A stretch of 64,000 nt of DNA from Mobula hypostoma (taxonomy: Eukaryota): positions 101,310,001-101,374,000 of the forward strand of contig NC_086097.1 in assembly GCF_963921235.1 (NCBI RefSeq), given 5' to 3'. The notes beneath the pieces were generated by a model. It was not told the origin of the DNA, did not search any database, and saw only the letters and a program-made list of their open reading frames with translations. Below are positions 1 through 64,000 of the stretch, piece by piece (positions within the stretch are counted from its first letter, which is position 1; every line of letters begins with the position of its first letter). The position numbers and the translations under genes were made by a program.

Positions 1-3000
1 ATATCCCGGGGGAGATGCGTGACTGGGATGTGATGCCCAGGGGAGATGTGTGACTGGGATGTGATGTCCCAGGGGAGATGTTTGACTGGGATGTGATGTC
101 CCAGGGGAGATGTGTGACTGGGATGTGATTCCCCAGGGGAGATGCGTGACTGAGATGTGATGGCCCAGGGGAGACGTGTGACTGGGATGTCATTCCCAGG
201 GGAGATGTCTAATTGGGATGTGATTTCCCGGGAGAGGTGGGTGACTGAGATGCGATATCCCAGGGGAGATGGGTGAGTGGAATGTGATACCCCAGGGGAG
301 ATGGGTGACTGGTATGTGATATCCCAGGGGAGATGTGTGACCGGAATGTGATGTCTGGGAGGTAATGTGTGTCTGGGATGTGATGTCCCGGGGGAGATGG
401 GTGACTGGAATGTGATTCTCCAGGGGAGATGTGTGACTGGGATGTGATGTCCCAGGGGAGATGGGTGATTGGGATGTGATAACCCAGAGGAGATGGGTGA
501 CTGGGATGTGATGTTCCTGGGGAGAAGGGTAACTGGGATGTGATATCCCAGGGGAGATGGGTTATTGGGATGTGATAACTCAGGGGAGATGGGTGAGGGG
601 GATGTGATGTCCCAGGGGAGATGGGTGACTGGGATGTGATGTCCCAGGGGAGATGGGTGATTGGGATGTGATAACCCAGAGGAGATGGGTGACTGGGATG
701 TGATGTCCCTGGGGAGATGGCTGACTGGGATGTTATGTCCCAGGGGAGATGCGTGACTGGGATGTGATGTCCCAGGGGAGATATGTGACTGGGATGTGAC
801 TCCCCGGGGGGAGAAGTGTGACTGGGATGTGATATCCCGGGGGAGATGGGTGACTGGGATGTGATTTTCCAGGGGAGATGCGTGACTGGGATGTGATGTC
901 CCAGGGGAGATGCGTGACTGGGATGTGACTCCCAGGGGGGAGAAGTGTGACTGGGATGTGATGTCCCAGGGGAAATGTGTGACTGGGATGTGATTCCCCA
1001 GGGGAGATGCGTGACTGAGATGTGATGGCCCAGGGGAGATGTGTGACTGGGATGTCATTCCCAGGGGAGATGTCTAATTGGGATGTGATTTCCCGGGGTA
1101 GGTGCATGACTGAGATGCGATGTCCCAGGGGAGATCTTTGACTTGGATGTGATGTCCCAGGGGAGATGTGTGACTGGGATGTGATTCCTCTGGGGAGATA
1201 TGTGACGGAATGCGATGTCCCAGGGGAGATGTTTGACTGGGATGTGATATCCCGAGGGAGATGGATAACTGGGATGTGATTCCCCAGCGGAGATGTGTTA
1301 CTGGGATGTGATGTCCCATGGGAGAAGGGTGAGTGGGATGTGATGTCCCCGGGGAGATGTGTGACTAGGATGTGATTCCCCAGGGGAAATGTGCGACTGG
1401 GATGTGATGTCCCGGGGGAGATGGGTGACTGGGATGTGATGTTCCAGTGGAGATGCGTGACTGGGATGTGATTCCCCAGGGGAGATGGCTGACTGGGATG
1501 TGATGTTCCAGCGGAGATGTGTGACTGGAATGTGATGTCCCGGAGGTGATGTGTAAGTGGGATGTGATGTCCCGGGGCAGATGGGTGACTGAGATGTGAT
1601 GCCCTGTGGAGATCTTTGACTTGGATGTGATGTCCCCGGGGAAATGTGTGACTGGGATGTGATTCCTCTGGGGAGATATGTGACGGAATGCGATGTCCCA
1701 GGGGAGATGTGTGACTGGGATGTGATGTCCCAGGGGAGATGGGTGACTGGGATGTGATGTCCCTGGGGAGAAGGGTAACTGGGATGTGATATCCCAGGGG
1801 AGATGTGTGACTAGGATGTGATTCCCCAGGGGAAATATGTGGCTGGGATGTGACACCCCGGGGGGAGATGCGTGACTGGGATGTGATTCCCCAGGGGAGA
1901 CAGGTGACTGGGATGTGATGTTCCAGGGGAGATGTGTGACTGGAATGTGATGTCCCGGAGGTGATGTGTGACTGGGATGTGATGTCCCGGGCAGATGGGT
2001 GACTGGAATATGATTCCCCAGGGGAGATGTGAGACTTGGATGTGATGTGCCGGGGGAGATGTGTGACTGGGATGTGACCTTCCAGGTGTGGTGTGTGCTG
2101 GAATGTGATGTACCAGGGGAGATGTCTGACTGGGATGTGATTCCCCAGGGGAGATGGGTGACTGGGATGTGATACCGCAGTGGAGATGGGTGAATGGGAT
2201 GTGATGTCCCAGAGGAGATGGGTGACGAGGATGTGATGTCCCGGAGGAGATGGGTGACTGGGATTTGATGCCCCAAGAGAGATGTGTGACTGGGATGTGA
2301 CGTTCCATTTGTGGTGTGTGCTGGGATGTGATGTTCCAGGGGAGATGTGTGACTGGAATGTGATGTCCTGGAGGTGAAGTGTGACTGGGATGTGATGTCC
2401 CAGGGGAGATGTGTGACTGGGATGAGATTTCCCAGGGGAGATGGGTGACTGGGATGTGATTCCCCAGGGGTGATGTGTGACTGGGATGTGATTTCCCAGG
2501 GGAGGAGTGTGATGGGGATGTGATTCCCCAGGGGCGATGGGTGACTGGGATGTGACATTCCAATTGTAGTGTGTGCTCGGATGTTATGTGCCAGAGGAGA
2601 TGAGTGACTGGGAAGTGATGCCCCAGGGCAGATGTGTGACTGGGATGTGATGTCCCAGGGGAGACGTGTGACTAGGATGTGATGTCCCAGAGGAGATGGG
2701 TGACTAGGATGTGATGTCCAGGGGGAGATGGGTGACTGGGATGTCATATTCCAGGGGAGATGCGTGACTGGGATGTGATTCCTCAGCGGAGATGGGTGAC
2801 TGGGATGTGATGTTCCAAGGGAGATGTGTGACTGGGATGTGACGTTCCATTTGTGGTGTGTGCTGGGATGTGATGTTCCAGGAGAGATGTGTGACTGGAA
2901 TGTGATGTCCTGGAGGTGAAGTGTGACTGGGATGTGATGTCCCAGGGGAGATGTGTGACTGGGATGTGATTTCCCAGGGGAGATGGGTGACTGGGATGTG

Positions 3001-6000
3001 ATTCCCCAAGGGAGATGTGTGACTGGGATGTGATGCCCCGGGGCAGATGGATGACTGGGATGTGATTTCCCAGGGGAGGAGTGTGATGGGGATGTGATTC
3101 CCCAGGGCCGATGGGTGATTGGGATGTGACGTTCCAATTGTGGTGTGTGCTGGGATGTGATGTGCCAGAGGAGATGGGTGACTGGGATGTGATGCCCCAG
3201 GGCAGATGTGTGACTGGGATGTGATGTGCCAGAGGAGATGGGTGACTGGGATGTGATGCCCCAGGGGAGATGTGTGACTGGGATGTGATGTCCCAGGGGA
3301 GATGTGTGACTGGGATGTGATTCCCCAGGGGAGATGGGTGACTGGGATGTGTTGTTCCAGGGGAGATGTGTGATTGGAATGTGATGTCCCGGAGGTGAAG
3401 TGTGACTGGGATGTGATGTCCCGGGGGAGATGGGTGACTGGGATGTGATTCCCCAGGGGAGATGTGTGACTGGGATGTGATGTCCCAGGGCAGATGGATG
3501 ACTGGGATGTGATTTCCCAGGGGAGGAATGTGATGAGGATATGATTCCCCTGGGGCGATGGGTGACTGGAATGTGATGTTCCAGGTGTGGTGTGTGCTGG
3601 GATATGATGTCCCAGAGGAGATGGGTGACTGGGATGTGATGTCCCTGGGGAGATGGCTGACTGGGATGTTATGTCCCAGGGGAGATGTGTGACTGGGATG
3701 TGATGTCCCAGGGGAGATGTGTGACTGGGATGTGATGTCCCTGGGGAGATGGCTGACTGGGATGTTATGTCCCAGGGGAGATGTGCGACTGGGATGTGAT
3801 GTCCCGGGGGAGATGGGTAACTGGGATGTCATATTCCAGGGGAGATGTGTGACTGGGATGTGATTCCCAGGGGAGATGTGTGACTGGGATGTGATTCCCA
3901 GGCGAAATGTGTGACTGGGATGTGATGTCCCAGGGGAGATGTTTGACTGGGATGTGATTACCCAGCGGAGATGTGTTACTGGGATGTGATGTCCCATGGG
4001 AGAAGGGTAAGTGGGATGTGATGTCCCCGGGGAGATGTGTGACTAGGATGTGATTCCCCAGGGGAAATGTGCGACTGGGATGTGATGTCCCGGGGGAGAT
4101 GGGTGACTGGGATGTGATGTCCCGGGGAGATGGATGACTGGGATGTGATTCCCAAGGGGATGTGATTCCCCAGGTGCGATGGGTGACTGGGAGGTGACCT
4201 TCCAGGTGTGGTGTGTGCTGGGATGTGATGTACCAGGGGAGGAGTGTGATGTGGATGTGATTCCCCAGGGGCGATGGGTGACTGGGATGTGACCTTCCAG
4301 CTGTGGTGTGTGCTGGGATGTGATGTACCAGGGGAGATGTCTGACTGGGATGTGATTCCCCAGGGGAGATGGGTGACTGGGATGTGATACCGCAGTGGAG
4401 ATGGGTGACTAGGATGTGATGTCCCGGAGGAGATAGGTGATTGGGATGTGATGCCCCAGGGAAGATGGGTGACTGGGATGTGATGTCCCAGAGGAGATGG
4501 GTGACTAGGATGTGATGTCCCAGAGGAGATGGGTGACTGGGATGTGATGCCCCACGGGAGATGTGTGACTGGGATGTGATGTCCCAGGGGAAATGTGTGA
4601 CTGGGATGTGATTCCCCAGGGGAGATGCGTGACTGAGATGTGATGGCCCAGGGGAGATGTGTGACTGGGATGTCATTCCCAGGGGAGATGTCTAATTGGG
4701 ATGTGATTTCCCGGGGTAGGTGCATGACTGAGATGCGATGTCCCAGGGGAGATCTTTGACTTGGATGTGATGTCCCAGGGGAGATGTGTGACTGGGATGT
4801 GATTCCTCTGGGGAGATATGTGACGGAATGCGATGTCCCAGGGGAGATGTTTGACTGGGATGTGATATCCCGGGGGAGATGGATAACTGGGATGTGATTC
4901 CCCAGCGGAGATGTGTGACTGGGATGTGATGTCCCATGGGAGAAGGGTGAGTGGGATGTGATCTCCCCGGGGAGATGTGTTACTGGGATGTGATTCCCCA
5001 GGGGAAATGTGCGACTGGGATGTGATGTCCTGGGGGAGATGGGTGACTGGGATGTGATGTTCCAGGTGAGATGTGTGACTGGGATGTGATTCCCCAGGGG
5101 AGATGGCTGACTGGGATGTGATGTTCCAGCGGAGATGTGTGACTGGAATGTGATGTCCCGGAGGTGATGTGTAAGTGGGATGTGATGTCCCAGGGCAGAT
5201 GGGTGACTGAGATGTGATGCCCTGTGGAGATCTTTGACTTGGATGTGATGTCCCCAGGGAAATGTGTGACTGGGATGTGATTCCTCTGGGGAGATATGTG
5301 ACGGAATGCGATGTCCCAAGGGAGATGTGTGACTGGGATGTGATGTCCCAGGGGAGATGGGTGACTGGGATGTGATGTCCCTGGGGAGAAGGGTAACTGG
5401 GATGTGATATCCCAGGGGAGATGTGTGACTAGGATGTGATTCCCCAGGGGAAATATGTGGCTGGGATGTGACACCCCGGGGGGAGATGCGTGACTGGGAT
5501 GTGATTCCCCATGTGAGATGGGTGACTGGGATGTGATGTTCCAGGGGAGATGTGTGACTGAAATGTGATGTCCCGGATGTGATGTGTGACGGGGATGTGA
5601 TGTCCCGGGCAGATGGGTGACTGGAATATGATTCCCCAGGGGAGATGTGAGACTTGGATGTGATGTGCCGGGGGAGATGTGTGACTGGGATGTGACCTTC
5701 CAGGTGTGGTGTGTGCTGGAATGTGATGTACCAGGGGAGATGTGTGACTGGGATGTGATTCCCCAGGGGAGATGGGTGACTGGGATGTGATACCGCAGTG
5801 GAGATGGGTGAATGGGATGTGATGTCCCAGAGGAGATGGGTGACGAGGATGTGATGTCCCGGAGGAGATGGGTGACTGGGATTTGATGCCCCAAGAGAGA
5901 TGTGTGACTGGGATGTGACGTTCCATTTGTGGTGTGTGCTGGGATGTGATGTTCCAGGGGAGATGTGTGACTGGAATGTGATGTCCTGGAGGGGAAGTGT

Positions 6001-9000
6001 GACTGGGATGTGATGTCCCAGGGGAGATGTGTGACTGGGATGTGATTTCCCAGGGGAGATGGGTGACTGGGATGTGATTCCCCAGGGGAGATGTGTGACT
6101 GGGATGTGATTCCACAGGGGAGGTGTGTGATGGGGATGTGATTCCCCAGGGGAGATGGGTGACTGGGATGTGACATTCCAATTGTAGTGTGTGCTCGGAT
6201 GTTATGTGCCAGAGGAGATGAGTGACTGGGAAGTGATGCCCCAGGGCAGATGTGTGACTGGGATGTGATGTCCCAGGGGAGATGGCTGACTGGGATGTGA
6301 TGCCCCAGGGGAGACGTGTGACTAGGATGTGATGTCCCAGAGGAGATGGGTGACTAGGATGTGATGTCCAGGGGGAGATGGGTGACTGGGATGTCATATT
6401 CCAGGGGAGATGCGTGACTGGGATGTGATTCCTCAGCGGAGATGGGTGACTGGGATGTGATGTTCCAAGGGAGATGTGTGACTGGGATGTGACGTTCCAT
6501 TTGTGGTGTGTGCTGGGATGTGATGTTCCAGGAGAGATGTGTGACTGGAATGTGATGTCCTGGAGGTGAAGTGTGACTGGGATGTGATGTCCCAGGGGAG
6601 ATGTGTGACTGGGATGTGATTTCCCAGGGGAGATGGGTGACTGGGATGTGATTTCCCAGGGGAGATGTGTGACTGGGATGTGATTCCCAGAGGAGATGGA
6701 TGACTGGGATGTGATTCCACAGGGGAGGTGTGTGATGGGGATGTGATTCCCCAGGGCCGATGGGTGATTGGGATGTGACGTTCCAATTGTGGTGTGTGCT
6801 GGGATGTGATGTGCCAGAGGAGATGGGTGACTGGGATGTGATTCCCCAGGGGAGATGTGTGACTGGGATGTGATGTCCCAGAGGAGATGGGTGACTGGGA
6901 TGTGATGCCCCGAGAGCAATGTGTGACTGAGACGTGATGTCCCACGGATGTGTGACTGGGATGTGATTCCCCATGTGAGATGGGTGACTGGGATGAGATG
7001 TTCCAGGGGAGATGTGTGACTGTAATGTGATGTCCCGGAGGTGAAGTGTGACTGGGATGTGATGTCCCGGGGGAGATGGGTGACTGGGATGTGATTCCCC
7101 AGGGGAGATGTGTGACTGGGATGTGATGTCCCAGGGGAGATGGATGACTGGGATGTGATTTCCCAGGGGAGGAATGTGATGAGGATATGATTCCCCTGGG
7201 GCGATGGGTGACTGGAATGTGATGTTCCAGGTGTGGTGTGTGCTGGGATATGATGTCCCAGAGGAGATGGGTGACTGGGATGTGATGTCCCTGGGGAGAT
7301 GGCTGACTGGGATGTTATGTCCCAGGGGAGATGGGTGACTGGGATGTGATGTCCCAGGGGAGATGTGTGACTGGGATGTGATGTCCCGGGGGAGATGTGT
7401 GACTGGGATGTGATGTCCCAGGGGAGATGTGTGACTGGGATGTGATGTCCCGGGGGAGATGGGTGACTGGGATGTCATATTCCAGAGGAGATGCGTGACT
7501 GGGATGTGATTCCCAGGGGAGATGTGTGACTGGGATGTGATGTCCCAGGGGAGATGTGTGACTGGGATGTGATGTCCCAGGGGAGATGTTTGACTGGGAT
7601 GTGATTCCCCAGCGGAGATGTGTGACTGGGATGTGATGTCCCATGGGAGAAGGGTGAGTGGGATGTGATGTCCCCGGGGAGATGTGTTACTGGGATGTGA
7701 TTCCCCAGGGGAAATGTGCAACTGGGATGTGATGTCCCGGGGGAGATGGGTGACTGGGATGTGATGTCCCGGGGAGATGGATGACTGGGATGTGATTCCC
7801 AAGGGGATGTGATTCCCCAGGTGCGATGGGTGACTGGGAGGTGACCTTCCAGGTGTGGTGTGTGCTGGGATGTGATGTACCAGGGGAGGAGTGTGATGTG
7901 GATGTGATTCCCCAGGGGAGATGGGTGACTGGGATGTGACCTTCCAGCTGTGGTGTGTGACTGGGATGTGATGTACCAGGGGAGATGTGTGACTGGGATG
8001 TGATTCCCCAGGGGAGATGGGTGACTGGGATGTGATACCGCAGTGGAGATGGGTGACTAGGATGTGATGTCCCGGAGGAGATAGGTGATTGGGATGTGAT
8101 GCCCCAGGGGAGATGGGTGACTGGGATGTGATGTCCCAGAGGAGATGGGTGACTAGGATGTGATGTCCCGGAGGAGATGGGTGACTGGGATGTGATGTCC
8201 CAGGGGAGATGGGTGACTGGGATGTGATGTCCCAGGGGAGATGTGTGACTGGGATGTGATGTTCCAGGGGAGATGGGTGACTGGGATGTGATGTCCCGGA
8301 GGTGAAGTGTGACTGGGATGTGATGTCCCAGGGGAGATGTGTGACTGGGATGTGATTTCCCAGGGGAGATGGGTGACTGGGATGTGATGTCCCAGGGGAG
8401 ATGTGTGACTGGAATGTGATGTCCCGGAGGTGATGTGTGATTGGGATGTGATGTCCCAGGGGAGATGTTTGACTGGGATGTGATATCCCAGGGGAGATGG
8501 GTGATTGGGATGTGATAACCCAGGGGAGATAGGTGATTGGGATGTGATGTCCCAGTGGAGAAGCGTAACTGGGATGTGATTCCCCAGAGGAGATGTGTGA
8601 CTGGAATGTGATGTCCCGGAGGTGATGTGTGACTGGGATGTGATGTCCCAGGGGAGATGTGTGACTGGGATGTCATTCCCAGGGGAGATGTCTAATTGGG
8701 ATGTGATTTCCCGGGAGAGGTGGGTGACTGAGATGCGATATCCCAGGGGAGATGGGTGAGTGGAATGTGATACCCCAGGGGAGATGGGTGACTGGTATGT
8801 GATATCCCAGGGGAGATGTGTGACCGGAATGTGATGTCTGGGAGGTAATGTGTGTCTGGGATGTGATGTCCCGGGGGAGATGGGTGACTGGAATGTGATT
8901 CTCCAGGGCAGATGTGTGACTGGGATGTGATGTGCCAGAGGAGATGGGTGACTGGGATGTGATGCCCCAGGGGAGATGTGTGACTGGGATGTGATGTCCC

Positions 9001-12000
9001 AGGGGAGATGTGTGACTGGGATGTGATTCCCCAGGGGAGATGCGTGACTGAGATGTGATGGCCCAGGGGAGACGTGTGACTGGGATGTCATTCCCAGGGG
9101 AGATGTCTAATTGGGATGTGATTTCCCGGGAGAGGTGGGTGACTGAGATGCGATATCCCAGGGGAGATGGGTGAGTGGAATGTGATACCCCAGGGGAGAT
9201 GGGTGACTGGGATGTGATATCCCAGGGGAGATGTGTGACCGGAATGTGATGTCTGGGAGGTAATGTGTGTCTGGGATGTGATGTCCCGGGGGAGATGGGT
9301 GACTGGAATGTGATTCTCCAGGGGAGATGTGTGACTGGGATGTGATGTCCCAGGGGAGATGGGTGATTGGGATGTGATAACCCAGAGGAGATGGGTGACT
9401 GGGATGTGATGTTCCTGGGGAGAAGGGTAACTGGGATGTGATATCCCAGGGGAGATGGGTGAGTGGGATGTGATAACCCAGGGGAGATGGGTGACTGGGA
9501 TGTGATGTCCCAGGGGAGATGGGTGACTGGGATGTGATGTCCCAGGGGAGATGGGTGATTGGGATGTGATAACCCAGAGGAGATGGGTGACTGGGATGTG
9601 ATGTCCCTGGGGAGATGGGTGACTGGGATGTGATGTCCCAGGGGAGATGCGTGACTGGGATGTGATGTCCCAGGGGAGATGCGTGACTGGGATGTGACTC
9701 CCAGGGGAGATGTGTGACTGGGATGTGATGTCCCAGGGGAGATGTGTGACTGGGATGTGATTTTCCAGGGGAGATGCGTGACTGGGATGTGATGTCCCAG
9801 GGGAGATGCGTGACTGGGATGTGATTCACAGGGGGGAGATGTGTGACTGGGATGTGATGTCCCAGGGGAAATGTGTGACTGGGATGTGATTCCCCATGGG
9901 AGATGCGTGACTGAGATGTGATGGCCCAGGGGAGATGTGTGACTGGGATGTCATTCCCAGGGGAGATGTCTAATTGGGATGTGATTTCCCGGGGTAGGTG
10001 CATGACTGAGATGCGATGTCCCAGGGGAGATCTTTGACTTGGATGTGATGTCCCAGGGGAGATGTGTGACTGGGATGTGATTCCTCTGGGGAGATATGTG
10101 ACTGGGATGTGATGTCCCAGGGGAGATGTTTGACTGGGATGTGATATCCCGGGGGAGATGGATAACTGGGATGTGATTCCCCAGCGGAGATGTGTGACTG
10201 GGATGTGATGTCCCATGGGAGAAGGGTGAATGGGATGTGATCTCCCCGGGGAGATGTGTTACTGGGATGTGATTATCCAGGGGAAATGTGCAACTGGGAT
10301 GTGATGTTCCAGGGGAGATGCGTGACTGGGATGTGATGTTCCAGGGGAGATGCGTGACTGGGATGTGATTCCCCAGGGGAGATGGCTGACTGGGATGTGA
10401 TGTTGCAGCGGAGATGTGTGACTGGAATGTGATGTCCCGGAGGTGATGTGTAAGTGGGATGTGATGTCCCGGGGCAGATGGGTGACTGAGATGTGATGCC
10501 CTGTGGAGATCTTTGACTTGGATGTGATGTCCCCAGGGAAATGTGTGACTGGGATGTGATTCCTCTGGGGAGATATGTGACGGAATGCGATGTCCCAAGG
10601 GAGATGTGTGACTGGGATGTGTTGTCCCAGGGGAGATGGGTGACTGGGATGTGATGTCCCTGGGGAGAAGGGTAACTGGGATGTGATATCCCAGGGGAGA
10701 TGTGTGACTAGGATGTGATTCCCCAGGGGAAATATGTGGCTGGGATGTGACACCCCGGGGGGAGATGCGTGACTGGGATGTGATTTCCCAGGGGATATGT
10801 GTGACTGGGATGTGATTCTCCAGGGGAGAAGAATGATTGGGATGCGATGTCCCAGGGGAGATGGGTGACTGGAATGTGATGTCCCGGAGGTGATGTGTGA
10901 CTGGGATGTGATGTCCCGGAGCAGATGGTTGACTGGGATGTGATGCCCCAGGGGAGATCTGTGACCGGGATGTGATGTCCCAGGGCACACGTGTGACTGG
11001 GATGTGATTTCCCAGGGGAGATGTGTGACTGGGATGTCATTCCCAGGGGAGATGTCTAATTAGGATGTGATTTGCCAGGGGAGGTGGGTGACTGAGATGC
11101 GATGTCCCAGGGGAGATGTGTGATTGGGATGTGATGTCCCAGGGGAGATGTTTGACTGGGATGTGATATCCCAGGGGAGATGGGTGAGTGGGATGTGATA
11201 CCCCAGGGGAGATGGGTGACTGGGATGTGATGTCCCAGGGGAGATGGATGACTGGGATGTGATTCCACAGGGGAGGTGTGTGATGGGGATGTGATTCCTC
11301 AGGGGCGATGGGTGACTGGGATGTGAGTCCCCAGGGGAGATGGGAGACTGGGATGTGATGTCGCTGGGGAGATCTGTGACTGGGATCTGATGTCCCGTGA
11401 GAGATGGGTGACTGAGATGTGATGGCCCAGGCGAGATGTGTGACTGGGATGTGATGTCCCAGGGGAGATGTTTGACTGGGATGTGATATCCCGGGGGAGA
11501 TGGATAACTGGGATGTGATTCCCCAGCGGAGATGTGTGACTGGGATGTGATGTCCCATGGGAGAAGGGTGAGTGGGATGTGATGTCCCCGGGGAGATGTG
11601 TGACTGGGATGTGATTCCCCAGGGGAGATGTGTGACTGGGATGTGATGTCCCAGGGGAGATGTTTGACTGGGATGTGATATTCCAGGGGATATGGGTGAT
11701 TGGGATGTGATTCCCCAGGGGAGATGTGCGACTGGGATGTGATGTCCCGGGGGAGATGGGTGACTGGGATGTCATATACCAGAGGAGATGCGTGACTGGG
11801 ATGTGATTCCCCAGGGGAGATGGGTGACTGGGATGTGATGTTCCAGGGGAGATGGTGACTGAGATGTGATTTCCCTGGGGAGATGTGTGACTGGGATGTG
11901 ATTCCCCAGGGGAGATGTGCGACTGGGATGTGATGTCCCGGGGGAGATGGGTGACTGGGATGTCATATTCCAGAGGAGATGCGTGACTGGGATGTGATTC

Positions 12001-45000: not shown

Positions 45001-45010
45001 GTAATGCCCG
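1..45010. repeat. 32-bp-unit satellite array, ~1400 copies, G-rich on + strand; continues beyond the left edge
   Basis: Consensus GTGACTGGGATGTGATGTCCCAGGGGAGATG(T/G) repeats head-to-tail, with point variants and occasional 31/33-bp units. Minus-strand ORFs show the 32-aa period (HHIPVTHLPWDITSQSHISPGTSHPSHTSPLG) expected from three 32-bp units. The array ends abruptly near 45010. Confidence 0.98.
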
Positions 45011-45034
45011 GCGGCGGGGGTGGGGGGGGCGCGG

Positions 45035-45240
45035 TGTGGTGTCTAAAACATGGTGCCAGAGGAGGTGGGGGTGGAAGCAGATACAACAGCCAAGTTTGAA
45101 ACGCATTTTGACTGGCATATCGACTGGCAGTGACATCAACTGGCACATCAACTGGCAAGGATATCGACTGGCAGGGGCATCGACTGGCACATCGACTGGC
45201 AGGAACATCGACTGGTAGGGGATGGAGGGATACAGTCCAT
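45035..45240 (+). mobile_element. Degenerate CR1-type LINE 3' end remnant abutting the 32-bp satellite
   Basis: GTGCCAGAGGAGGTG..GTGGAAGCAGATACAACAGCCAAGTTTGAAACGCATTTTGAC..GGGATGGAGGGATACAG resembles the CR1 ORF2 C-terminus (LPEEVVEADT..FKRHLD) and the start of the 3' UTR. It is similar to the CR1 pieces at 47503-47564 and ~49380-49450. Confidence 0.55.
45110..45217 (+). repeat. Small minisatellite: 8 copies of RACTGGYA with 4- or 8-nt spacers ending in ATC (12/16-bp period)
   Basis: Read directly: gactggca-tatc, gactggca-gtgacatc, aactggca-catc, aactggca-aggatatc, gactggca-ggggcatc, gactggca-catc, gactggca-ggaacatc, gactggta. Confidence 0.85.
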
Positions 45241-48865: not shown

Positions 48866-49530
48866 AGAGTGGAAGTATTTAGATTTTACAAGGTTGTTTG
48901 ACAAGGTGCCACATGTGCATATATTAAGAGCTCATTGTATTGGAGGAAGTCTGTCAGCACGGATTGAAAATGTGGATTAACCCAGGGAACAAGCAGACAC
49001 TCTAATTGGTAGGCAGGTAAAGAAGGCACATGATATTTTTGTTTTTATTAGTTTTCAAGAGTCAGGAAGTTATGTTGCAGTTCTATAGAACAATGGTCAG
49101 GCCGCGTCTGGAGTCTTGTTCTTAGTTCCTGTTCCCCCAATCTGGGAAGGATGTGGAGGTTCTGAAGGGGATGCAGAAGAGGTTTAGCAGGGAACTGTCT
49201 GGATTAGAGAGCGTGCACTCTAATGAGAGGCTAGACAATCTAGGGTTGTTTTCTCTGGAGTGGTAATCTGATAGAAGTGCATGCAATTGTGAGAGGCATA
49301 GACGGAATAAAGAGTCGGTGTCTTTTTCCCAGGGTAGAAATGTCTAATTCCAGAGATGCCTGGCATGTGCCACTGGGGTGGTACTGGAGATGTTTAAGGG
49401 GCTCTTAGACAAGAACATAAATATGCAGGAAATGAAGGAAAATGGACCGTGTGCAGGCAGAGGGATTTTGTGTCATTAGCCTAATTAGTTTGGAACAAGA
49501 CAGTGGGTTGGAGTGCTGTACTGTTCTGAG
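48866..49530 (+). mobile_element. Heavily deleted CR1 LINE ORF2/3' UTR remnant
   Basis: TATTTAGATTTTACAAGGTTGTTTGACAAGGTGCCACAT reads YLDF...FDKVPH (CR1 RT motif). This is followed by VMLQFYRTMVRP.LE, QKRF.R...GLE, ERLDNLGLFSLE, LFPRVEMSN.R, and a 3' end GTGCTGTACTGTTCT. Confidence 0.8.
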
Positions 49531-49689: not shown

Positions 49690-49962
49690 GTTTATTTTGT
49701 TGATTTACTGAGATACAGTGTGGAATTGGCCCTTCTGATCCCTCGAGCTGTGCTACCCAGCAACCCCCCAATTTAACCCTAGCCTAATCACGGGACAAGT
49801 TACAATGACCAATTAACCTGCCAACAGGTACATCTTTGGACTGTGGGAGGAAACTCACGTGGTCACGAGGAAAACGTACAAACTCCTTAAGGCAGTGACA
49901 GGAATTGAACCTGGTTTGCCTGTACTGTAAAGCGTTGTGCTAACCTCTATGCTACTGTACCT
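49690..49962 (-). mobile_element. tRNA-derived V-SINE (HE1-like) with a CR1-type tail
   Basis: The minus-strand head has an A-box-like TAGCATAGAGGTT (49954-49942) and a B box GGTTCAATTCC (49911-49901). The central domain is V-like (+ strand CTTTGGACTGTGGGAGGAAAC..CACG..AACGTACAAACTCC). The tail GAAGGGCCAATTCCACACTGTATCTC is followed by an A-rich end. Confidence 0.8.
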
Positions 49963-49971
49963 TGGATTTCA

Positions 49972-51308
<1,337 letters not shown>

Positions 51309-54900: not shown

Positions 54901-57900
54901 ACATCACCTTAGAATCCAGCTCCTATCTCAAGGTTAGTGCTAGGACATAACCCAAGAATCCAACTCCTGTCTCATGGTCAATGTTAGGGACATCACTCAG
55001 GAATCCAGCTCCTAACTCGTGGTCAGTGATAGGGACATCACACCAGAATCCTGCTCCTGTCTCATGCTCAGTGTTCAGACATCACCCCCAAATCCAGCTC
55101 CTGTCTCATGATCAGTGTTCAGACAACACCCCGAAATCCAGCTCCTGTCTCATGGTCATTGCTGGGACAATACCCCAGAATCCAGCTCCTGTCTCATGGT
55201 TACTGCTGGGACATCACTCCGGAATCAGTTCCAGCCTCGAGATCAGTGCTGGGACCTCACGCCAGAATCCAGCTCCTGTCTCATACTCAGTGCTGGGACA
55301 TCAACCCAGAATCAAGCTCCTGCCTCATGGTCAGTGCTCGGACATCACCCCAGCATCCAGCTCCTGCCTCGTAGTCGGTTCTGGGACATCACCCCAGAAT
55401 CCAGCTCCTGCCTCATGCTCAGTGCTGGGACATCACCCCAGAATCCAGCTCCTGCCTCATAGTCAGTGCTAGGACATCACCCCAGAATCCAGCTCCTGTC
55501 TCATGGTCAATGTTGAGACATCACCCCAAAATCCAGCTCCTGTCTCATGGTCAGTGCTGGGACATCACCCCAGAATTCAGCTCCTGTCTCATGGTCAGTG
55601 CTGGGACATCACCCCAGAATTCAGCTCCTGTCTCAAGGTTAGTGCTAGGACATCACCCCGGAATCAGTTCCCTCCTCGAGATCAGTGCTGGGACATCACC
55701 CCAGAATCCAGCTCCTGTCACATGGTCAGTGCTGGGACATCACCCCAGAATCCAGCTCCAGCCTCATGGTCAGTATTGGGGACATCACCCCAGAATCCAG
55801 CTCCTGCCTCGTGGTCAGTGCTAGGACATCACCCCAGAATCCAGCTCCTGCCTCATGGTCAGTGCTGGGACATCACACCAGAATCCAGCTCCTGCCTCAT
55901 GGTTGGTGAAAGGGCATCACCCCTGAATCCAGATACAGTCTCATGGTCAGTGCTCGGACATCACCCCAGAATCCAACTCCTGTCTCATGGTCAGTGCTAG
56001 GACATGACCCCAGAATCCAGCTCCTGTCTCATGGTCAATGTTGGGGACATCAATCTGGAATCGAGCACCTGTCTCATGGCCAGTGCTAGGACATCACCCC
56101 AGAATCCAGCTCCTGTCTAATGGTCAGTGCTAGGACATCACCCCAGAATCCAGCTCCTGTCTTGTGGTCAGTGTCGGGACAGCACCCCAGAATCCAGCTC
56201 CTGTCTTGTGGTAAGTGTTGAGACATCACACCAGAATCCAGATCCTGCCTCATGGTCAGTGTTGGGGACATCACCCCAGAATCCAACTCCTGCCTCATGG
56301 TCAGTGCTGGGACATCACCCCAGAATCCAGATCCTGTCTCATGGTCAGTGCTGGGACATCACCCCAGAATCCAACTCCTGTCTCATGGTCAGTGCTAGGA
56401 CATGACCCCAGAATCCAGCTCCTGTCTCATGGTCAATGTTGGGGACATCACTCTGGAATCGAGCACCTGTCTCATGGCCAGTGCTAGGACCTCACCCCAG
56501 AATCCAGCTCCTGTCTTGTGGTCAGTGTTGGGACATCACCCCGAAATCCAGGTCCTGTCTCATGGTCAGTGCTGGGACAATACCCCAGAATCCAGCTCCT
56601 ACCTCATGCTCAGTATTGGGACATCACCCCAGAATCCAGCTCCTGCCTCATGGTCAGTGCTGGGATATCACCCCAGAATCCGGCTCCTGCCTCATGGTCA
56701 GTGATAGGGACATCACCCTAGAATCCAGCTCCTGCCTCATGGTTAGTGCTAGGACATCACCCCAGAATCCAGCTCCTGTTTCATGGTCAATGTTGGGGAC
56801 ATCACTCTGGAATCCAGCTCCTGTCTCGTGGTCAGTGATAGGGACATCACCCCAGAATCCAGCTCCTCTCTCATGGTTAGTGCTAGGACATCACTCCGGA
56901 ATACAGCTCCTGTCTCATGGTCAGTGTTGAGACATCACCCCAGAATTCAGCTCCTGTCTCATGGTTACTGCTGGGACATCACTCCGGAATCAGTTCCAGC
57001 CTCAAGATCAGTGCTGGGACATCACCCCAGAATCCAGCTCCTGTCTCATGGTTACTGCTGGGACATCACTCCGGAATCAGTTCCAGCCTCAAGATCAGTG
57101 CTGGGACATCACCCCAGAATCCAGCTCCTGTCTCATGGTCAGTGCTAGGACATCACCCCAGAATCCAGCTCCTGCCTCGAGGTCAGTGTTGGAACATCAC
57201 CCCAGAATCCAGCTCCTGTCTCATGGTCGGTGCTGGGACATCACTCAGGAATCCAGCTCCTACCTCATGGTCAGTGATAGGGACATCACCCCAGAATCCA
57301 GCTCCTGTCTCATGGTCGGTGATAGGGACATCACCCCAGAATCCAGCTCCTGTCTCATGGTCGGTGCTGGGACATCACCCAGGAATCCAGCTCCTGTCTC
57401 ATGGTCGGTGCTGGGACATCACTCAGGAATCCAGCTCCTACCTCATGGTCAGTGATAGGGAAATCACCCCAGAATCCAGCTCCTGTCTCATGGTCAGTGC
57501 TGGGACATCACCCCAGAATCCAGCTCCTGTCTCATGGTTACTCCTGGGACATCACTCCGGAATCAGTTCCAGCCTCGAGATCAGTGCTGGGACATCACCC
57601 CAGAATCCAGCTCCAGCCTCATAGTCAGTGCTGGGACATCACCCCAGAATCCAGCTCCAGCCTCATGGTCAGTATTGGGGACATCACCCAAGAATCCAGC
57701 TCCTGCCTCGTGGTCAGTGTTGGGGACATCACCCCAGGATCCAGCTCCTGCCTCATGGTCAGTGCTGGGACATCACACCAGAATCCAGCTCCTGTCTCAT
57801 GGTCAGTGATAGGGACATCACCCCAGAATCCAGCTCCTGTCTCCTGGTCAGTGCTGGGACATCACACCAGAATCCAGCTCCTGTCTCATGGTCAGTGATA

Positions 57901-60900
57901 GGGACATCACACCAGAATCCAGCTCCTGCCTCATGGTTGGTGTGAGGGCATCACCCCTGAATCCAGATACAGTCTCATGGTCAGTGCTCGGACATCACCC
58001 CAGAATCCAACTCCTGTCTCATGGTCAGTGCTAGGACATGACCCCAGAATCCAGCTCCTGTCTCATGGTCAATGTTGGGGACATCACTCTGGAATCGAGC
58101 ACCTGTCTCATGGCCAGTGCTAGGACATCACCCCAGAATCCAGCTCCTGTCTAATGGTCAGTGCTAGGACATCACCCCAGAATCCAGCTCCTGTCTTGTG
58201 GTCAGTGTCGGGACATCACCCCAGAATCCAGCTCCTCCCTCGTGGTCAGTGTTGGGGACATCACCCCAGGATCCAGCTCCTGCCTCATGGTCAGTGCTGG
58301 GACATCACACCAGAATCCAGCTCCTGTCTCATGGTCAGTGATAGGGACATCACCCCAGAATCCAGCTCCTGTCTCCTGGTCAGTGCTAGGACATCACCCC
58401 AAATCCCAGCTCCTGCCTCGTAGTCAGTGCTGGGACATCACCCCAGAATCCAGCTCCTGCCTCATGGTCAGTGCTGGGACATCACCCCAGAATCCAGCTC
58501 CTGTCACATGGTCAGTGCTAGGACATCACCCCAAAAACCAGCTCCTGCCTCGTAGTCAGTGATAGGGACATCGCCCTAGAATCCAGCTCCTGTCTCATGG
58601 TCAATGTTGGGGACATCACTCCGGAATCCAGCCCCTGTCTCGTGGTCAGTGCTGGGACATCACTCAGGAATCCAGCTCTACCTCGTGGTCAGTGACAGGG
58701 ACATCACCCCAGAATCCAGCTCCTGTCTCATGCTCGGTGCTGGGACATCACCCTGGAATCCAGCTCCTGCCTCGTGGTCAGTGATAGGGACATCACCCCA
58801 GAATCCAGCTCCTGTCTCATGATCAGTGCTAGGACAGCACCCTGGAATCCAGCTCTTGCCTCGTTGTCAGTGCTGGGACATCACCCGAGAATCCAGCTCC
58901 TGGTCAGTGCTAGGACATCACCCCAGAATCCAGCTCCTGCCTCATGATCAGTGCTAGGACATCACCCCAGAATCCAGCTCCTGCCTCATGGCCAGTGTTG
59001 AGACATCACTCCAGAATCCAGCTCCTGTCTCATGGTCAGTGTTGGGACATCACTCCAGAATCCAGCTCCTGTCTCATGGTCAGTGTTGGGACATCACCCC
59101 AGAATCCAGCTCCTGCCTCATGGTCAGTGCTGGGTCATCACCCCGGATCCAGCTCCTGTCTCATGGTCAATGTTGGGGACATCACTCTGGAATCCAGCTC
59201 CTATGTCATGGTCAGTTCTGGGACATCACTCAGGAATCCAGCTCCTACCTCATGGGCAGTGATAGGGACATCACCCTAGAATCCAGCTCCTGTCTCATGG
59301 TCAGTGCTGGGACATCACCCCAGAATCCAGCTCCTGTCTCATGGTCGGTGCTGGGACATCACCCCAGAATCCAGCTCCTGTCTCATGGTCAGTGTTGAGA
59401 CATCACCCCAAAATCCAGCTCCTGTCTCATGGTCAGTGCTGGGACATCACCCCAGAATTCAGCTCCTGTCTCAAGGTTAGTGCGAGGACATCACCCCGGA
59501 ATCAGTTACCTCCTCGAGATCAGTGCTGGGACATCACCCCAGCATCCAGCTCCTGTCACATGGTCAGTGCTGGGACATCACCCCAGAATCCAGCTCCTGT
59601 CTCATGGTCAGTGCTGGGACATCACCCCAGAATCCAGCTCCTGTCTCATGGTCAATGTTAGGGACATCACCCGAGAATCAGCTCCTGCCTCATGGTCGGT
59701 GATAGGCACATCACCCCAGAATCCAGCTCCTGTCTCATGGTCTGTGTTAGGACATCACCCCGAAATCCAGCTCCTGTCTCATCGTCAGTGCTGGGTCATC
59801 ACCCCAGAATCCAGCTCCTGCCTCATGGTCAGTGATAGGGACATCACCCCAGAATCCTGCTCCTGTCTCATGGTCAGTGTTGGGATATCACCCCAGAATC
59901 CAGCTCCTGCCTCATGGTCACTGCTGGGACATCACCCGAGAATCCAGCTCCTGTCTCATGATCAGTGTTAGGACATGACCCCAGAAACCAGTTCCTGCCT
60001 CATGGTCAGTGATAGGGACATCACCCCAGAATCCAGCTCCTGCCTCACGGTCAGTGATATGGACATCACCCCAGAATCCAGCTCCTGTCTCATGGTCGGA
60101 GATAGGGACATCACCCCAGAATCCAGCTCCTGCCTCGTGATTGGTGCTGCAACATCACCCCAGAATCCAGCTCCTGCCTCATGGACGGTAATAGTGACAT
60201 TACCCCAGAATCCAGCTCCTGCCTCGTAGTCAGTGCTAGGATATCACCCCAGAATCCAGCTCCTGTCTCATGGTCAGTGTTGGGGACATCACCCCAGAAT
60301 CCAGCTCCTGCCTCATGGTCAGTGCTGGGATATCACCCCAGAATCCAGCTCCTGTCTCATGGTCAGTGGTGGGACATCACCCCAGAATCCAGCTCCTGTC
60401 TCGTGGTCAGTGCTGGGACATCACCCCAGAATCCAGCTCCTGCCTCGTGGTCAGTGCTGGGACATCACCCCAGAATCCAGCTCCTACCTCGTGATCAGTG
60501 CTGGGACATCACCCCAGAATCCAGCTCCTGCCTCGTGGTCAGTGCTGGGACATCACGCCAGAATCCAGCTCCTGCCTCGTGGTCAGTGATAGGGACATCA
60601 CCCCAAAATCCAGCTCCTGCCTCGTGGTCAGTGTTGGGACATCACCCCAGAATCCAGCTCCTGCCTCGTGGTCTGTGCTGGGACATCACCCCGGATTCCA
60701 GTTCCTGCCTCATGGTCAGTGTTGGGACATCACCCCAGCATCCAGCTCCTGCCTTGTGGTCAGTGCTGGGACATCACCCCAGAATCCAGCTCCTGTCTCA
60801 TGGTCAGTGATGGGGACATCACCCAGAATCCAGCTCCAACCTCATGGTCAGTGCTGGGACATCACTCTGGAATCCAGCTCCTGTCTCGTGGTCACTGCTG

Positions 60901-63900
60901 GGACATCACCCCAGAATCCAGCTCCTGTCTCGAGGTCAGTGTTGGGACATCACCCCAGAATCCAGCTCCTGTCTCGTGGTCAGTGCTGGGACATCACCCC
61001 AGAATCCAGCTCCTGCCTCATGGTCAGCGTTGAGACATCACCCCAGAATCCAGCTCCTGCCTCATGGTCAGTGCTGGGACATCATCCCAGAATCCAGCTC
61101 CTGTCTCAAGGTCAATGGTGGGACATCACCCCAGAATCCAGCTCCTGTCTCGAGGTCAGTGGTGGGACATCACCCCACACTCCAGCTCCTGCCTCGTGGT
61201 CAGTGCTGGGACATCACCCTAGAATCCAGCTCCTACCTCATGGTCAGTGCTGGGACATCACCCCAGATTCCAGCTCCTGCCTCGTGGTCAGTGCTGTGAC
61301 ATCAACCCAGAATCCAGCTCCTGCCTCATGGTCAGTGGTGGGATATCACCCCAGAATCCAGCTCCTGCCTCGTAGTCAGTGATAGGGACATCACCCCAGA
61401 ATCCAGCTCCTGCCTCGTGGTCAGTGATAGGGACATCACCCCAGAATCCAGCTCCTGCCTCGTGGTCAGTGTTGGGACATCACCCCAGAATCCAGCTCCT
61501 GCCTCATGGTCAGTGCTGGGACATCACCCCAGAATCCAGCTCCTGCCTCATGGTCAGTGCTGGGACATCACCCCAGAATCCAGCTCCTGTCTCGAGGTCA
61601 GTGGTGGGACATCACCCCAGAATCCAGCTCCTGTCTCATGGTCAGTGTTGGGATATCACCCCAGAATCCAGCTCCTGCCTCATGGTCACTGCTGGGACAT
61701 CACCCGAGAATCCAGCTCCTGTCTCATGATCAGTGTTAGGACATGACCCCAGAAACCAGTTCCTGCCTCATGGTCAGTGATAGGGACATCACCCCAGAAT
61801 CCAGCTCCTGCCTCACGGTCAGTGATATGGACATCACCCCAGAATCCAGCTCCTGTCTCATGGTCGGTGATAGGGACATCACCCCAGAATCCAGCTCCTG
61901 CCTCGTGATTGGTGCTGCAACATCACCCCAGAATCCAGCTCCTGCCTCATGGACGGTAATAGTGACATTACCCCAGAATCCAGCTCCTGCCTCGTAGTCA
62001 GTGCTAGGATATCACCCCAGAATCCAGCTCCTGTCTCATGGTCAGTGTTGGGGACATCACCCCAGAATCCAGCTCCTGCCTCATGGTCAGTGCTGGGATA
62101 TCACCCCAGAATCCAGCTCCTGTCTCATGGTCAGTGGTGGGACATCACCCCAGAATCCAGCTCCTGTCTCGTGGTCAGTGCTGGGACATCACCCCAGAAT
62201 CCAGCTCCTGCCTCGTGGTCAGTGCTGGGACATCACCCCAGAATCCAGCTCCTACCTCGTGATCAGTGCTGGGACATCACCCCAGAATCCAGCTCCTGCC
62301 TCGTGGTCAGTGCTGGGACATCACGCCAGAATCCAGCTCCTGCCTCGTGGTCAGTGATAGGGACATCACCCCAAAATCCAGCTCCTGCCTCGTGGTCAGT
62401 GTTGGGACATCACCCCAGAATCCAGCTCCTGCCTCGTGGTCTGTGCTGGGACATCACCCCGGATTCCAGTTCCTGCCTCATGGTCAGTGTTGGGACATCA
62501 CCCCAGCATCCAGCTCCTGCCTTGTGGTCAGTGCTGGGACATCACCCCAGAATCCAGCTCCTGTCTCATGGTCAGTGATGGGGACATCACCCAGAATCCA
62601 GCTCCAACCTCATGGTCAGTGCTGGGACATCACTCTGGAATCCAGCTCCTGTCTCGTGGTCACTGCTGGGACATCACCCCAGAATCCAGCTCCTGTCTCG
62701 AGGTCAGTGTTGGGACATCACCCCAGAATCCAGCTCCTGTCTCGTGGTCAGTGCTGGGACATCACCCCAGAATCCAGCTCCTGCCTCGTGGTCAGTGCTG
62801 CGACATCACCCCAGAATCCAGCTCCTGCCTCATGGTCAGCGTTGAGACATCACCCCAGAATCCAGCTCCTGCCTCATGGTCAGTGCTGGGACATCATCCC
62901 AGAATCCAGCTCCTGTCTCAAGGTCAATGGTGGGACATCACCCCAGAATCCAGCTCCTGTCTCGAGGTCAGTGGTGGGACATCACCCCACACTCCAGCTC
63001 CTGCCTCGTGGTCAGTGCTGGGACATCACCCTAGAATCCAGCTCCTACCTCATGGTCAGTGCTGGGACATCACCCCAGATTCCAGCTCCTGCCTCGTGGT
63101 CAGTGCTGTGACATCAACCCAGAATCCAGCTCCTGCCTCATGGTCAGTGGTGGGATATCACCCCAGAATCCAGCTCCTGCCTCGTAGTCAGTGATAGGGA
63201 CATCACCCCAGAATCCAGCTCCTGCCTCGTGGTCAGTGATAGGGACATCACCCCAGAATCCAGCTCCTGCCTCGTGGTCAGTGTTGGGACATCACCCCAG
63301 AATCCAGCTCCTGCCTCATGGTCAGTGCTGGGACATCACCCCAGAATCCAGCTCCTGCCTCATGGTCAGTGCTGGGACATCACCCCAGAATCCAGCTCCT
63401 GTCTCGAGGTCAGTGGTGGGACATCACCCCAGAATCCAGCTCCTGTCTCATGGTCAGTTATAGGGACATCACCACAGAATCCAGCTCCTGCCTCGTGATC
63501 AGTGCTAGGGACATCACCCCAGAATCCAGCTCCTGCCTCATGGTCAGTGCTGCGACATCACCCCAGAATCCAGCTCCTGCCTCATGGTCAGTGTTGAGAC
63601 ATCACCACAGAATCCAGCTCCTGCCTCATGGTCAGTGCTGGGATATCACCCCAGAATCCAGCTCCTGTCTCGAGGTCAGTGGTGGGACATCACCCCGGAA
63701 TGCAGCTCCTGCCTCGTGGTCAGTGCTGGGACATCACCCCAGAATCCAGCTCCTGCCTTGTGGTCAGTGTTGAGACATCACCCCAGAATCCAGCTCCTGT
63801 CTCATGGTCAGTGTTCAGACATCACCCCCAAATCCAGCTCCTGTCTCATGGTCAGTGTTGAGACATCACCCCGAAATCCAGCTCCTGTCTCATCGTCAGT

Positions 63901-64000
63901 GCTGGGACATCACCCCACAATGCAGCTCCTGCCTCATGGTCAGTGCTACTACATCACCCTAGAATCCAGCTCCTGCCTCATGGTCAGTGATAGGGACATC
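51938..64000. repeat. 44-bp-unit satellite array, ~270 copies, C-rich on + strand; continues beyond the right edge
   Basis: Consensus GGTCAGTGCTGGGACATCACCCCAGAATCCAGCTCCTGTCTCAT, with frequent 45-bp variants (GATAGGGAC, GTTGGGGAC). Plus-strand ORFs show a 44-aa period (MVSAGTSPQNPAPVSWSVLGHHPRIQLLSHGQCWDITPESSSCL). The first few units are more diverged. Confidence 0.98.

What the first reader, a model, noticed from the sequence alone, without database searches (positions are those of the whole stretch)
1..64000. A conserved PLEKHD1 exon isolated between two giant satellite arrays (satellite-filled introns)
Seen: a single intact 90-bp exon with consensus splice sites lies in a 7-kb island, with >=45 kb of satellite downstream and >=12 kb upstream in gene orientation. 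By eye I found neither the preceding exon (..KYFNIHPK) nor the following one (GNILLAA..QWLEMLQESGK) in the island. Inference: the downstream intron is >50 kb, the upstream intron is >13.8 kb, and both are mostly satellite that must be transcribed. Established parallel: satellite-filled giant introns of Drosophila Y fertility genes (kl-3, kl-5). This arrangement is unusual for an ordinary vertebrate gene.
Basis: partly seen in the sequence, partly recalled or inferred. Interest (0 to 1): 0.75.

Follow-up and report, generated by a model that had tools for sequence, protein, structure and literature searches.

The report
Ray gene swollen by intronic minisatellites
In a devil ray, an intact PLEKHD1 gene has one 90-base exon stranded between two different repeat blocks of 46,000 and 50,000 bases; a neighbouring gene carries a similar block, so these are likely tolerated passengers of a repeat-rich zone near a probable centromere, not a special fertility-gene device.

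Summary
Observation confirmed. Window 50065-50154 (-) is exon 3 of an intact 13-exon PLEKHD1 (502 aa, identical to the Mobula hypostoma protein). Exons 2 and 4 lie 74.4 and 64.2 kb away. These introns are 73% and 78% tandem array: a 46.0-kb 44-mer and a 50.4-kb 32-mer, gap-free and locus-specific. Contigs from three studies join exons 2-3-4, but whether those animals carry the arrays is unknown. Arrays fill 62% of all intron bases of the gene.

The Drosophila Y-loop parallel fails on size, repeat type and chromosome. The trait is regional: a beta-spectrin gene 2.2 Mb away holds a 58-kb array, and arrays occur in 18 of 63 grid samples at 94-108.6 Mb against 0 of 37 elsewhere on the chromosome. 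A centromere-type 167-bp satellite lies 3.2 Mb away and a chromosome-fusion junction maps to 105.7-110.0 Mb.

Best reading: passive, tolerated minisatellite expansion (like human CACNA1C intron 3, but larger). One oddity: both flanking arrays share a 17-19-base motif in inverted orientation; RNA pairing was not exceptional. The scan noted this kind of array before in other genes of this genome (EPS15, selectin, BICRA). Interest 0.35.

The parts
1..45009 (.). 32-bp GC-rich minisatellite array in PLEKHD1 intron 3; whole array 50.4 kb (G000:C1:101304614-101355009, about 1,570 units); G-rich on +, so C-rich in the transcript
   Evidence: monomers about 9% from consensus, internal duplications up to 1.7 kb at 98-99.9%; only weak 73-76% matches elsewhere among the candidates scored
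45010..51943 (.). 6.9-kb non-array island; 38% of it matches interspersed repeats in the sampled background (e.g. 46405-48349, 49007-49356, 49690-49979)
45111..45220 (.). small degenerate 16/28/44-bp tandem repeat beside the edge of the 32-mer array
50060..50064 (-). 5' splice donor GTAAG of exon 3, start of the 64,216-bp intron 3
   Evidence: contigs switch to exon 4 here
50065..50154 (-). PLEKHD1 exon 3, 90 bp, phase 0/0, aa 82-111 inside the PH domain
   Evidence: covered exactly, 0 mismatches, by contigs of runs X1, X2, X10
50155..50174 (-). 3' splice acceptor (pyrimidine tract + CAG) of exon 3, end of the 74,436-bp intron 2
   Evidence: contigs switch to exon 2 here
51944..64000 (.). 44-bp GC-rich minisatellite array in intron 2; whole array 46.0 kb (G000:C1:101361944-101407947, 1,042 units); a further 8.6-kb 26-mer array lies farther into the same intron
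   Evidence: monomers about 8.5% from consensus, adjacent duplications of 2.8 and 4.2 kb at 99.9%; no match outside the locus among the candidates scored

Best explanation
PLEKHD1 here is an intact, ordinary gene whose introns 2 and 3 grew to 74 and 64 kb because short local units were copied head to tail into 46- and 50-kb minisatellite arrays, likely as tolerated passengers of a repeat-rich zone near a probable centromere and chromosome-fusion site. Shown: the gene structure, array sizes, locus-specific units, nested kilobase duplications inside the arrays, similar arrays in most large introns and in a neighbouring gene, and exon 2-3-4 joins in sequencing contigs. Inferred: (1) growth by repeated unequal exchange or template switching; (2) the chromosomal zone favours array growth or retention; (3) RNA polymerase II reads through the arrays and exon 3 is picked out by exon definition, helped by strong splice sites, 1.8 and 5.1 kb of non-array buffer and the absence of poly(A) signals in the arrays; (4) the arrays have no selected function.
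For: Intact ORF: 13 exons, all GT-AG, 502 aa, identical to P0244. Arrays occur in 7 of 12 introns and make up 157,194 of 251,568 intron bases, 62%, with different units. Without arrays, introns 2 and 3 would be 19.8 and 13.8 kb. Diverged monomers (221 distinct of 605, 134 of 508) with near-identical kilobase blocks are the pattern expected from stepwise duplication. A beta-spectrin gene (Pfam spectrin and CH exons) contains a 58,373-bp 39-mer array; 40% of its 230-kb region is array. Grid samples: 18 of 63 at 94-108.6 Mb carry an array against 0 of 37 elsewhere on C1, Fisher p about 1e-4 (the boundary was chosen after seeing the data). A 167-bp, 36% GC satellite lies at about 104.6 Mb, 98-99% identical to blocks on C2, C55, C64 (contig tip) and C81. 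PSEN1 (105.7 Mb) and NEUROD6-A (110.0 Mb) sit on contigs of different length in 9 of 10 non-mobulid elasmobranchs with clear records and on the same contig in both Mobula species. M. hypostoma chromosome 1 = skate LE4 + LE9. Stingray chromosome 4 has more tandem repeats at its putative centromere. No AATAAA or ATTAAA occurs on the sense strand of the five large arrays, against about 11 per 10 kb in the other intron sequence.
Against: The zone is patchy: 0 of 19 samples at 101.86-104.25 Mb carry an array, so there is no smooth gradient from the satellite to PLEKHD1. An earlier scan note (e1-9190534, not tested here) reports a large intronic array at about 71 Mb of the same contig, outside the zone, and other notes report them on other contigs; position is therefore an enrichment, not a requirement. 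Neutrality is not tested: there are no population or expression data. The spliced contigs come from coded organisms whose introns were not seen, and run X14 had no contig on the exon. The two arrays share an inverted 17-19-base motif, which fully independent origins do not predict. Centromere function of the 167-mer is untested.
Confidence: 0.7

Rival explanations
1. The arrays act as cis-regulatory elements (enhancer-like VNTRs) that tune PLEKHD1 expression, as the 30-mer array in human CACNA1C intron 3 does.
For: The CACNA1C arrays of 3,000 to 30,000+ bp drive reporter expression (10.1101/311795, abstract and passages). The units here are of the same class (32 and 44 bp, intronic, early introns).
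Against: No functional data. Unrelated units fill many introns of this gene and of neighbours, which fits a regional mutational process better than gene-specific regulation.
Confidence: 0.1
2. The assembled arrays are inflated or mis-assembled, and the true introns are much shorter.
For: The 44-mer array holds adjacent duplications of 4.2 and 2.8 kb at 99.9% identity (longest exact run 3,302 bp), and 40% of its positions lie in duplicated 512-mers.
Against: No gaps in 264 kb. The monomers are heterogeneous, and only 0.6% of positions of the 32-mer array lie in duplicated 512-mers, so most of its 50 kb is unique at that scale. Removing every near-perfect duplicate would still leave tens of kilobases.
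Confidence: 0.08
3. The two arrays come from one seed placed in opposite orientation on either side of exon 3, and their transcripts pair across the exon to loop it for inclusion, skipping or back-splicing.
For: The units share a 12-base exact word in reverse complement, the longest of 378 pairs among 28 array families; 14 of 5,000 shuffles reach it. With one 2-base gap the match is 17 of 19 bases; 13 of 3,000 shuffles reach that score. Genome-wide the motif occurs 178 + 143 times, of which 177 + 142 are in these two arrays. Exon 3 is phase 0/0.
Against: I noticed the motif after the fact; about one such pair is expected by chance among 378, and 3 of 378 reach the same gapped score. The motif is a hairpin that can fold on itself. 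Net binding energy ranks 17 of 36 array pairs of this gene, and 30 of 300 periodic shuffles do as well; the trimer duplex had p = 0.056. All three contigs seen include exon 3 linearly.
Confidence: 0.06
4. The gene works like Drosophila kl-3/kl-5: satellite-filled giant introns impose slow, stage-specific transcription with dedicated RNA-binding proteins.
For: Introns mostly made of tandem repeats lie inside a functional gene; the repeats must be transcribed to join exons 2-3-4 in this genome (inference).
Against: kl-3 spans at least 4.3 Mb and is over 99% simple satellite, Y-linked and made over about 90 h in spermatocytes (PMC6508621 passages). This gene spans 253 kb with 62% array. Genes with 50-100 kb introns did not behave like the gigantic genes (PMC11207136 passages). 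Nothing in the 15 of 48 PLEKHD1 papers listed points to such a programme (titles and abstract starts only).
Confidence: 0.04

Closest known systems
Giant intronic minisatellite VNTR of human CACNA1C intron 3 (30-mer; Song, Lowe and Kingsley, 10.1101/311795; abstract and passages read)
   Same: Single-locus array of about 30-45-bp units with variable and invariant positions, inside an intron of an intact gene, tens of kilobases long.
   Different: Here two different arrays of 46 and 50 kb (above the 3-30+ kb reported) flank one 90-bp exon, and further arrays fill other introns; length polymorphism and enhancer activity are not tested.
Drosophila Y-linked gigantic genes kl-3 and kl-5 (PMC6508621, PMC11207136; passages read)
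   Same: Exons separated by introns made mostly of tandem repeat that has to be transcribed and spliced out.
   Different: About 17-fold smaller gene (253 kb against at least 4.3 Mb), complex 26-44-bp units rather than AATAT/AAGAC, 62% rather than over 99% repeat, not on a Y; no sign of a dedicated expression programme.
Tandem-repeat-rich chromosome ends and centromeric regions of elasmobranchs (PMC10620051 passages; 10.1101/2025.06.08.657570 passages and section 5)
   Same: Local excess of simple tandem repeats among protein-coding genes at chromosome ends and in a roughly 10-Mb central, putatively centromeric region.
   Different: The passages read describe regional content, not single genes with 50-kb intronic arrays; here the zone is tied to a gene, a candidate centromeric satellite and a mapped fusion interval.
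Minisatellite-rich introns of bird dot chromosomes (10.1101/2025.10.14.682431; passages read)
   Same: Degenerate minisatellites enriched in introns of genes in gene-dense chromatin.
   Different: Dot-chromosome genes have short introns, with 10-30-bp units; here the arrays lengthen introns to 64-74 kb on a 256-Mb chromosome.

Membership tests
PLEKHD1 orthologue | Full PH plus coiled-coil ORF with all exons in order on one strand | tested here: met
   13 exons, GT-AG, 502 aa, identical to P0244
PLEKHD1 orthologue | Exon used in spliced transcripts | tested here: met
   Exon 2-3 and 3-4 joins in contigs of X1, X2, X10 (3 of 4 runs laid, three studies). The organisms are coded and RNA status is a guess, so it is not shown for the array-bearing genome itself.
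Intronic minisatellite (VNTR class) | Head-to-tail units of about 10-60 bp | tested here: met
   32 and 44 bp
Intronic minisatellite (VNTR class) | Single-locus array inside an intron | tested here: met
   the shared motif occurs only twice outside the two arrays. The DNA searches score only the best candidates.
Intronic minisatellite (VNTR class) | Variable copy number between alleles or individuals | not testable with these tools
   One assembly only; no raw long reads offered
Drosophila Y-loop gigantic genes | Megabase introns, gene span of several Mb | tested here: not met
   Introns 74 and 64 kb, gene 253 kb against at least 4.3 Mb
Drosophila Y-loop gigantic genes | Simple satellite making up over 99% of the locus | tested here: not met
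   26-44-bp units, 62% of intron bases
Drosophila Y-loop gigantic genes | Y linkage | tested here: not met
   On the 256-Mb contig C1, whose gene content matches the autosome described as LE4 + LE9
Drosophila Y-loop gigantic genes | Spermatocyte-specific loops with dedicated RNA-binding proteins | not testable with these tools
   No tissue-resolved RNA or cytology
Centromeric satellite (for the 167-bp block at 104.6 Mb, outside the window) | AT-rich, nucleosome-sized, homogeneous monomer shared between chromosomes | tested here: met
   167 bp, 36% GC, 96-97% unit match; 98-99% on C2, C55, C64, C81, with 38 of 471 candidates scored
Centromeric satellite (for the 167-bp block at 104.6 Mb, outside the window) | CENP-A binding or primary constriction | not testable with these tools
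   Needs ChIP/CUT&Tag or FISH

The most novel reading that the evidence does not exclude
The 32-mer and 44-mer arrays descend from one short hairpin seed copied in inverted orientation on both sides of exon 3, and about a thousand complementary copies on each side let the nascent RNA zip up across the exon. This would be a satellite-built counterpart of inverted Alu pairs, controlling inclusion, skipping or circularisation of a frame-preserving PH-domain exon in a vertebrate pericentromeric gene.
Probability: 0.06. Interest if true: 0.7.

Novelty: new member of a known kind. Interest (0 to 1): 0.35.

Why it matters
It is an extreme but ordinary-looking case: a conserved vertebrate gene stays intact with 62% of its intron length turned into tandem arrays, and a 90-base exon remains usable between blocks of 46 and 50 kb. 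That makes it a handy natural test of exon definition and of polymerase read-through across long GC-rich repeats in a vertebrate, between human VNTRs and the Drosophila Y genes in size. The surroundings add a candidate centromeric satellite for a devil ray and a fusion junction narrowed to about 4 Mb, which help to ask whether old chromosome ends and centromeres breed such arrays. It does not establish a new mechanism.

Tried and rejected
Orphan exon or pseudo-exon: rejected, all 13 exons are in order and the ORF is intact. Retrocopy in G000: only one match. Pfam and PDB searches with the 30-aa exon alone were uninformative. No RNA holder is on record in the run search, and runs X14-X16 held next to none of the words; X14 gave no contig; neither is evidence on expression. 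Origin of the arrays from a transposon piece (a lead from earlier notes): 3 of 4 array edges had no hit in 1.7 Mb of sampled DNA, and the fourth had an interspersed repeat ending about 110 bp short of the edge in most hits; not supported, weakly tested. Strand bias against splice donors: GTRAG is absent from the sense strand of the 32- and 38-mers but more frequent on the sense strand of the 44-, 26- and 28-mers, so there is no consistent bias. Exceptional RNA pairing between the two arrays: not found. Telomeric repeats as a fusion scar: one 12-base hit (99.9 Mb) in the samples printed; the sampling is sparse, so no conclusion. Homeobox, forkhead, GPCR and Ras searches gave no marker between 106 and 150 Mb; the bHLH search gave the one at 110.0 Mb. 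Literature: ten searches listed no paper on PLEKHD1 intron structure or on 50-kb intronic arrays in rays; the library lacks most subscription journals, and no supplements were read (the synteny tables of the mobulid preprint could refine the junction).
Full report
Observation. The window is a 32-bp tandem array (1-45009), a 6.9-kb island and a 44-bp array (51944-64000). In the island, 50065-50154 on the minus strand reads open for 30 residues, between a pyrimidine-rich CAG acceptor and a GTAAGT donor. A homologue search returned 51 proteins, nearly all named PLEKHD1, led by rays and sharks; the exon peptide is 23-30 of 30 identical in all 51. It occurs once in the genome G000.

Gene structure. 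A sawfish PLEKHD1 query gave 13 matches, all on G000:C1, minus strand, in protein order. With 200 kb of neighbouring DNA, the 13 exons resolve with GT-AG ends into a 1,509-bp ORF without internal stop, identical to the 502-aa Mobula hypostoma isoform X1 record P0244. An alternative last exon matching isoform X2 is also present. The window's exon is exon 3. Intron 2 is 74,436 bp (73% array) and intron 3 is 64,216 bp (78%); the gene spans 253,077 bp with no N in the 264 kb read. The exon lies 1,789 bp from the 44-mer and 5,055 bp from the 32-mer.

Splicing. Contigs from runs X1, X2 and X10 (three studies, three coded organisms) cover exactly 50064-50156 without a mismatch, whereas a contig of X8 runs on through both flanks. 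Their loose ends read as the start of exon 4 and the end of exon 2 (3 of 4 runs laid, X14 had no contig). So the exon is spliced 2-3-4 in these animals. Whether they carry the arrays is unknown, and the RNA label of the runs is a guess.

The arrays. The 32-mer array is 50.4 kb and the 44-mer 46.0 kb. The gene also holds a 26-mer (8.6 kb, intron 2), 35-mer (3.3 kb, intron 5), GA-rich repeat (1.8 kb, intron 6), 34-mer (2.2 kb, intron 7), 28-mer (3.1 kb, intron 9), 38-mer (15.4 kb, intron 11), and another 28-mer (22.5 kb) with 43-mers (intron 12). In total 157,194 of 251,568 intron bases (62%) are array, in 7 of 12 introns. Both large units are locus-specific among the candidates scored. Monomers differ from consensus by about 9%, while blocks of 1-4 kb recur at 98-99.9% identity. 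I read this as stepwise growth by unequal exchange or template switching (inference from established minisatellite biology). The 99.9% adjacent duplications in the 44-mer could in part be assembly errors; the 32-mer array is almost wholly unique at 512 bp, so its size is hard to explain that way. The five large arrays have no AATAAA or ATTAAA on the sense strand, against about 11 per 10 kb in other intron sequence, but they nearly lack them on the other strand too, and donor-like words show no consistent strand bias. This fits tolerance, not selection.

Is it special to this gene? No. Of 100 ten-kb samples laid on a grid along C1, 18 of 63 at 94-108.6 Mb carry an array of 300 bp or more, against 0 of 37 elsewhere (Fisher p about 1e-4; the boundary was drawn after seeing the data and sampling was denser inside). 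Each array has its own unit. A beta-spectrin gene at 99.0-99.2 Mb (spectrin and CH exons) contains one 58,373-bp 39-mer array between its exons, and 40% of 230 kb there is array. Earlier notes of this scan, which I did not re-test, report 11-43-kb arrays in EPS15, a selectin, BICRA, LRRC56 and others, one at about 71 Mb of C1, outside this zone. The zone is thus enriched, but not the only place.

Chromosomal setting. At about 104.57-104.64 Mb lies a 167-bp, 36% GC satellite with 96-97% unit match, flanked by a 49-mer array. The same unit is 98-99% identical on C2, C55, the tip of C64 and C81 (38 of 471 candidates scored). This is the profile of a centromeric satellite (established knowledge; function untested). 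A preprint states that M. hypostoma chromosome 1 comprises skate chromosomes 4 and 9 (10.64898/2026.10.27.761883; passages and sections 18 and 23 read). An exon at 105.7 Mb is PSEN1, which shares its contig length with PLEKHD1 in 5 of 5 non-mobulid species with both records. A gene at 110.0 Mb is NEUROD6-A. PSEN1 and NEUROD6-A lie on contigs of different length in 9 of 10 non-mobulid elasmobranchs with unambiguous records (Narcine is the exception; one Chiloscyllium record shared by two species was left out) and on the same contig in both Mobula species. Contig length is only a proxy for chromosome, and one moved gene is not excluded, but RALBP1 at 165.5 Mb and RUNX1T1 at 185 Mb (their human positions on 18p and 8q are recalled) fit a second ancestral chromosome. 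So PLEKHD1 likely sits 3.2 Mb from a centromere and 4-9 Mb from a fusion junction, near the end of an ancestral chromosome. Elasmobranch chromosome ends and a stingray centromeric region are reported to be rich in tandem repeats (PMC10620051 passages; 10.1101/2025.06.08.657570 passages and section 5). Against a simple gradient, 0 of 19 samples at 101.86-104.25 Mb carry an array. RBM25 (99.8 Mb) and PSEN1, neighbours in human by my recall, are 5.9 Mb apart here, so a local rearrangement may have split the zone (untested).

An oddity. The 32-mer and 44-mer share CTGGGACATCAC in reverse complement, extending to 17 of 19 bases with one gap. It is the longest exact match among 378 pairs of 28 array families; 14 of 5,000 and 13 of 3,000 shuffles reach it, and only 2 of 321 genome-wide copies lie outside the two arrays. 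I noticed it after the fact, and about one such pair is expected by chance in 378. A shared local seed is plausible: a 28-mer and the 43-mer of this gene score equally high, and the end of the intron-12 28-mer array resembles the 43-mer. Predicted pairing of the two transcripts is unremarkable: rank 17 of 36 pairs, with 30 of 300 shuffles as strong. I keep RNA pairing across exon 3 as the novel case at 6%.

Comparison. It works like a large intronic minisatellite such as the human CACNA1C 30-mer (3,000 to 30,000+ bp; 10.1101/311795, abstract and passages), and meets the testable features of that class; length variation is untestable here. It is not a member of the Drosophila Y-loop class: kl-3 spans at least 4.3 Mb and is over 99% simple satellite (PMC6508621 passages), and genes with 50-100-kb introns served as controls that did not share the behaviour of the gigantic genes (PMC11207136 passages). 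Minisatellite-rich introns are also described on bird dot chromosomes (10.1101/2025.10.14.682431 passages). Ten literature searches listed nothing on this gene's introns; no supplements were read.

Verdict. Real, intact and large, but a new member of a known kind and common in this genome: passive minisatellite expansion in a repeat-prone chromosomal zone (0.7), enhancer-like role (0.1), assembly inflation (0.08), inverted RNA pairing (0.06), Y-loop-like programme (0.04). Interest 0.35.

Noticed in passing
G000:C1 about 104.57-104.64 Mb (L179, L131, L180, L181): 167-bp AT-rich satellite, almost CpG-free, 98-99% identical to blocks on C2 (159.6 Mb), C55 (10.65 Mb), the first 32 kb of C64 and C81 (31.4 Mb): candidate centromeric repeat; flanked by a 49-mer array of about 60 kb (L141, L176-L178).
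   Followed up: partly
G000:C1:99076373-99134745 (L036 and L162-L167): 58.4-kb 39-mer array inside a beta-spectrin gene (SPTBN5-like by my recall), with several other arrays in the same gene.
   Followed up: partly
G000:C1 105.7-110.0 Mb (L150, L196): Interval holding the fusion junction between two ancestral chromosomes, from PSEN1 and NEUROD6-A linkage in other elasmobranchs; Narcine also has the two genes on one contig.
   Followed up: partly
G000:C1 99.8 Mb (L113) and 105.7 Mb (L150): RBM25 and PSEN1, adjacent in human by recall, are 5.9 Mb apart on either side of the 167-bp satellite, suggesting a local inversion.
   Followed up: no
G000:C1:101243299-101258756 (L022-L023): 15.4-kb 38-mer array in PLEKHD1 intron 11, extremely G-rich on the template strand with dense G-quadruplex motifs.
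   Followed up: no
G000:C1:101190356-101190451 (L017): Alternative last exon of PLEKHD1 (isoform X2) inside the 55-kb last intron.
   Followed up: no
G000:C1:101198815-101232435 (L017-L021): The 28-mer and 43-mer arrays of intron 12 look related; the end of the 28-mer array grades into a 43-mer-like variant.
   Followed up: partly
window 48680-48868: Near-perfect (98%) 91-bp tandem duplication in the island.
   Followed up: no
L117 (G000:C1 100.6 Mb): 47-mer array with 99% unit match over 8 kb, much more homogeneous than its neighbours, so probably very young.
   Followed up: no
G000:C58:74476215-74476523 and C1:182549857-182553666: Weak (73-76%) tandem matches to the 32-mer at two other loci.
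   Followed up: no
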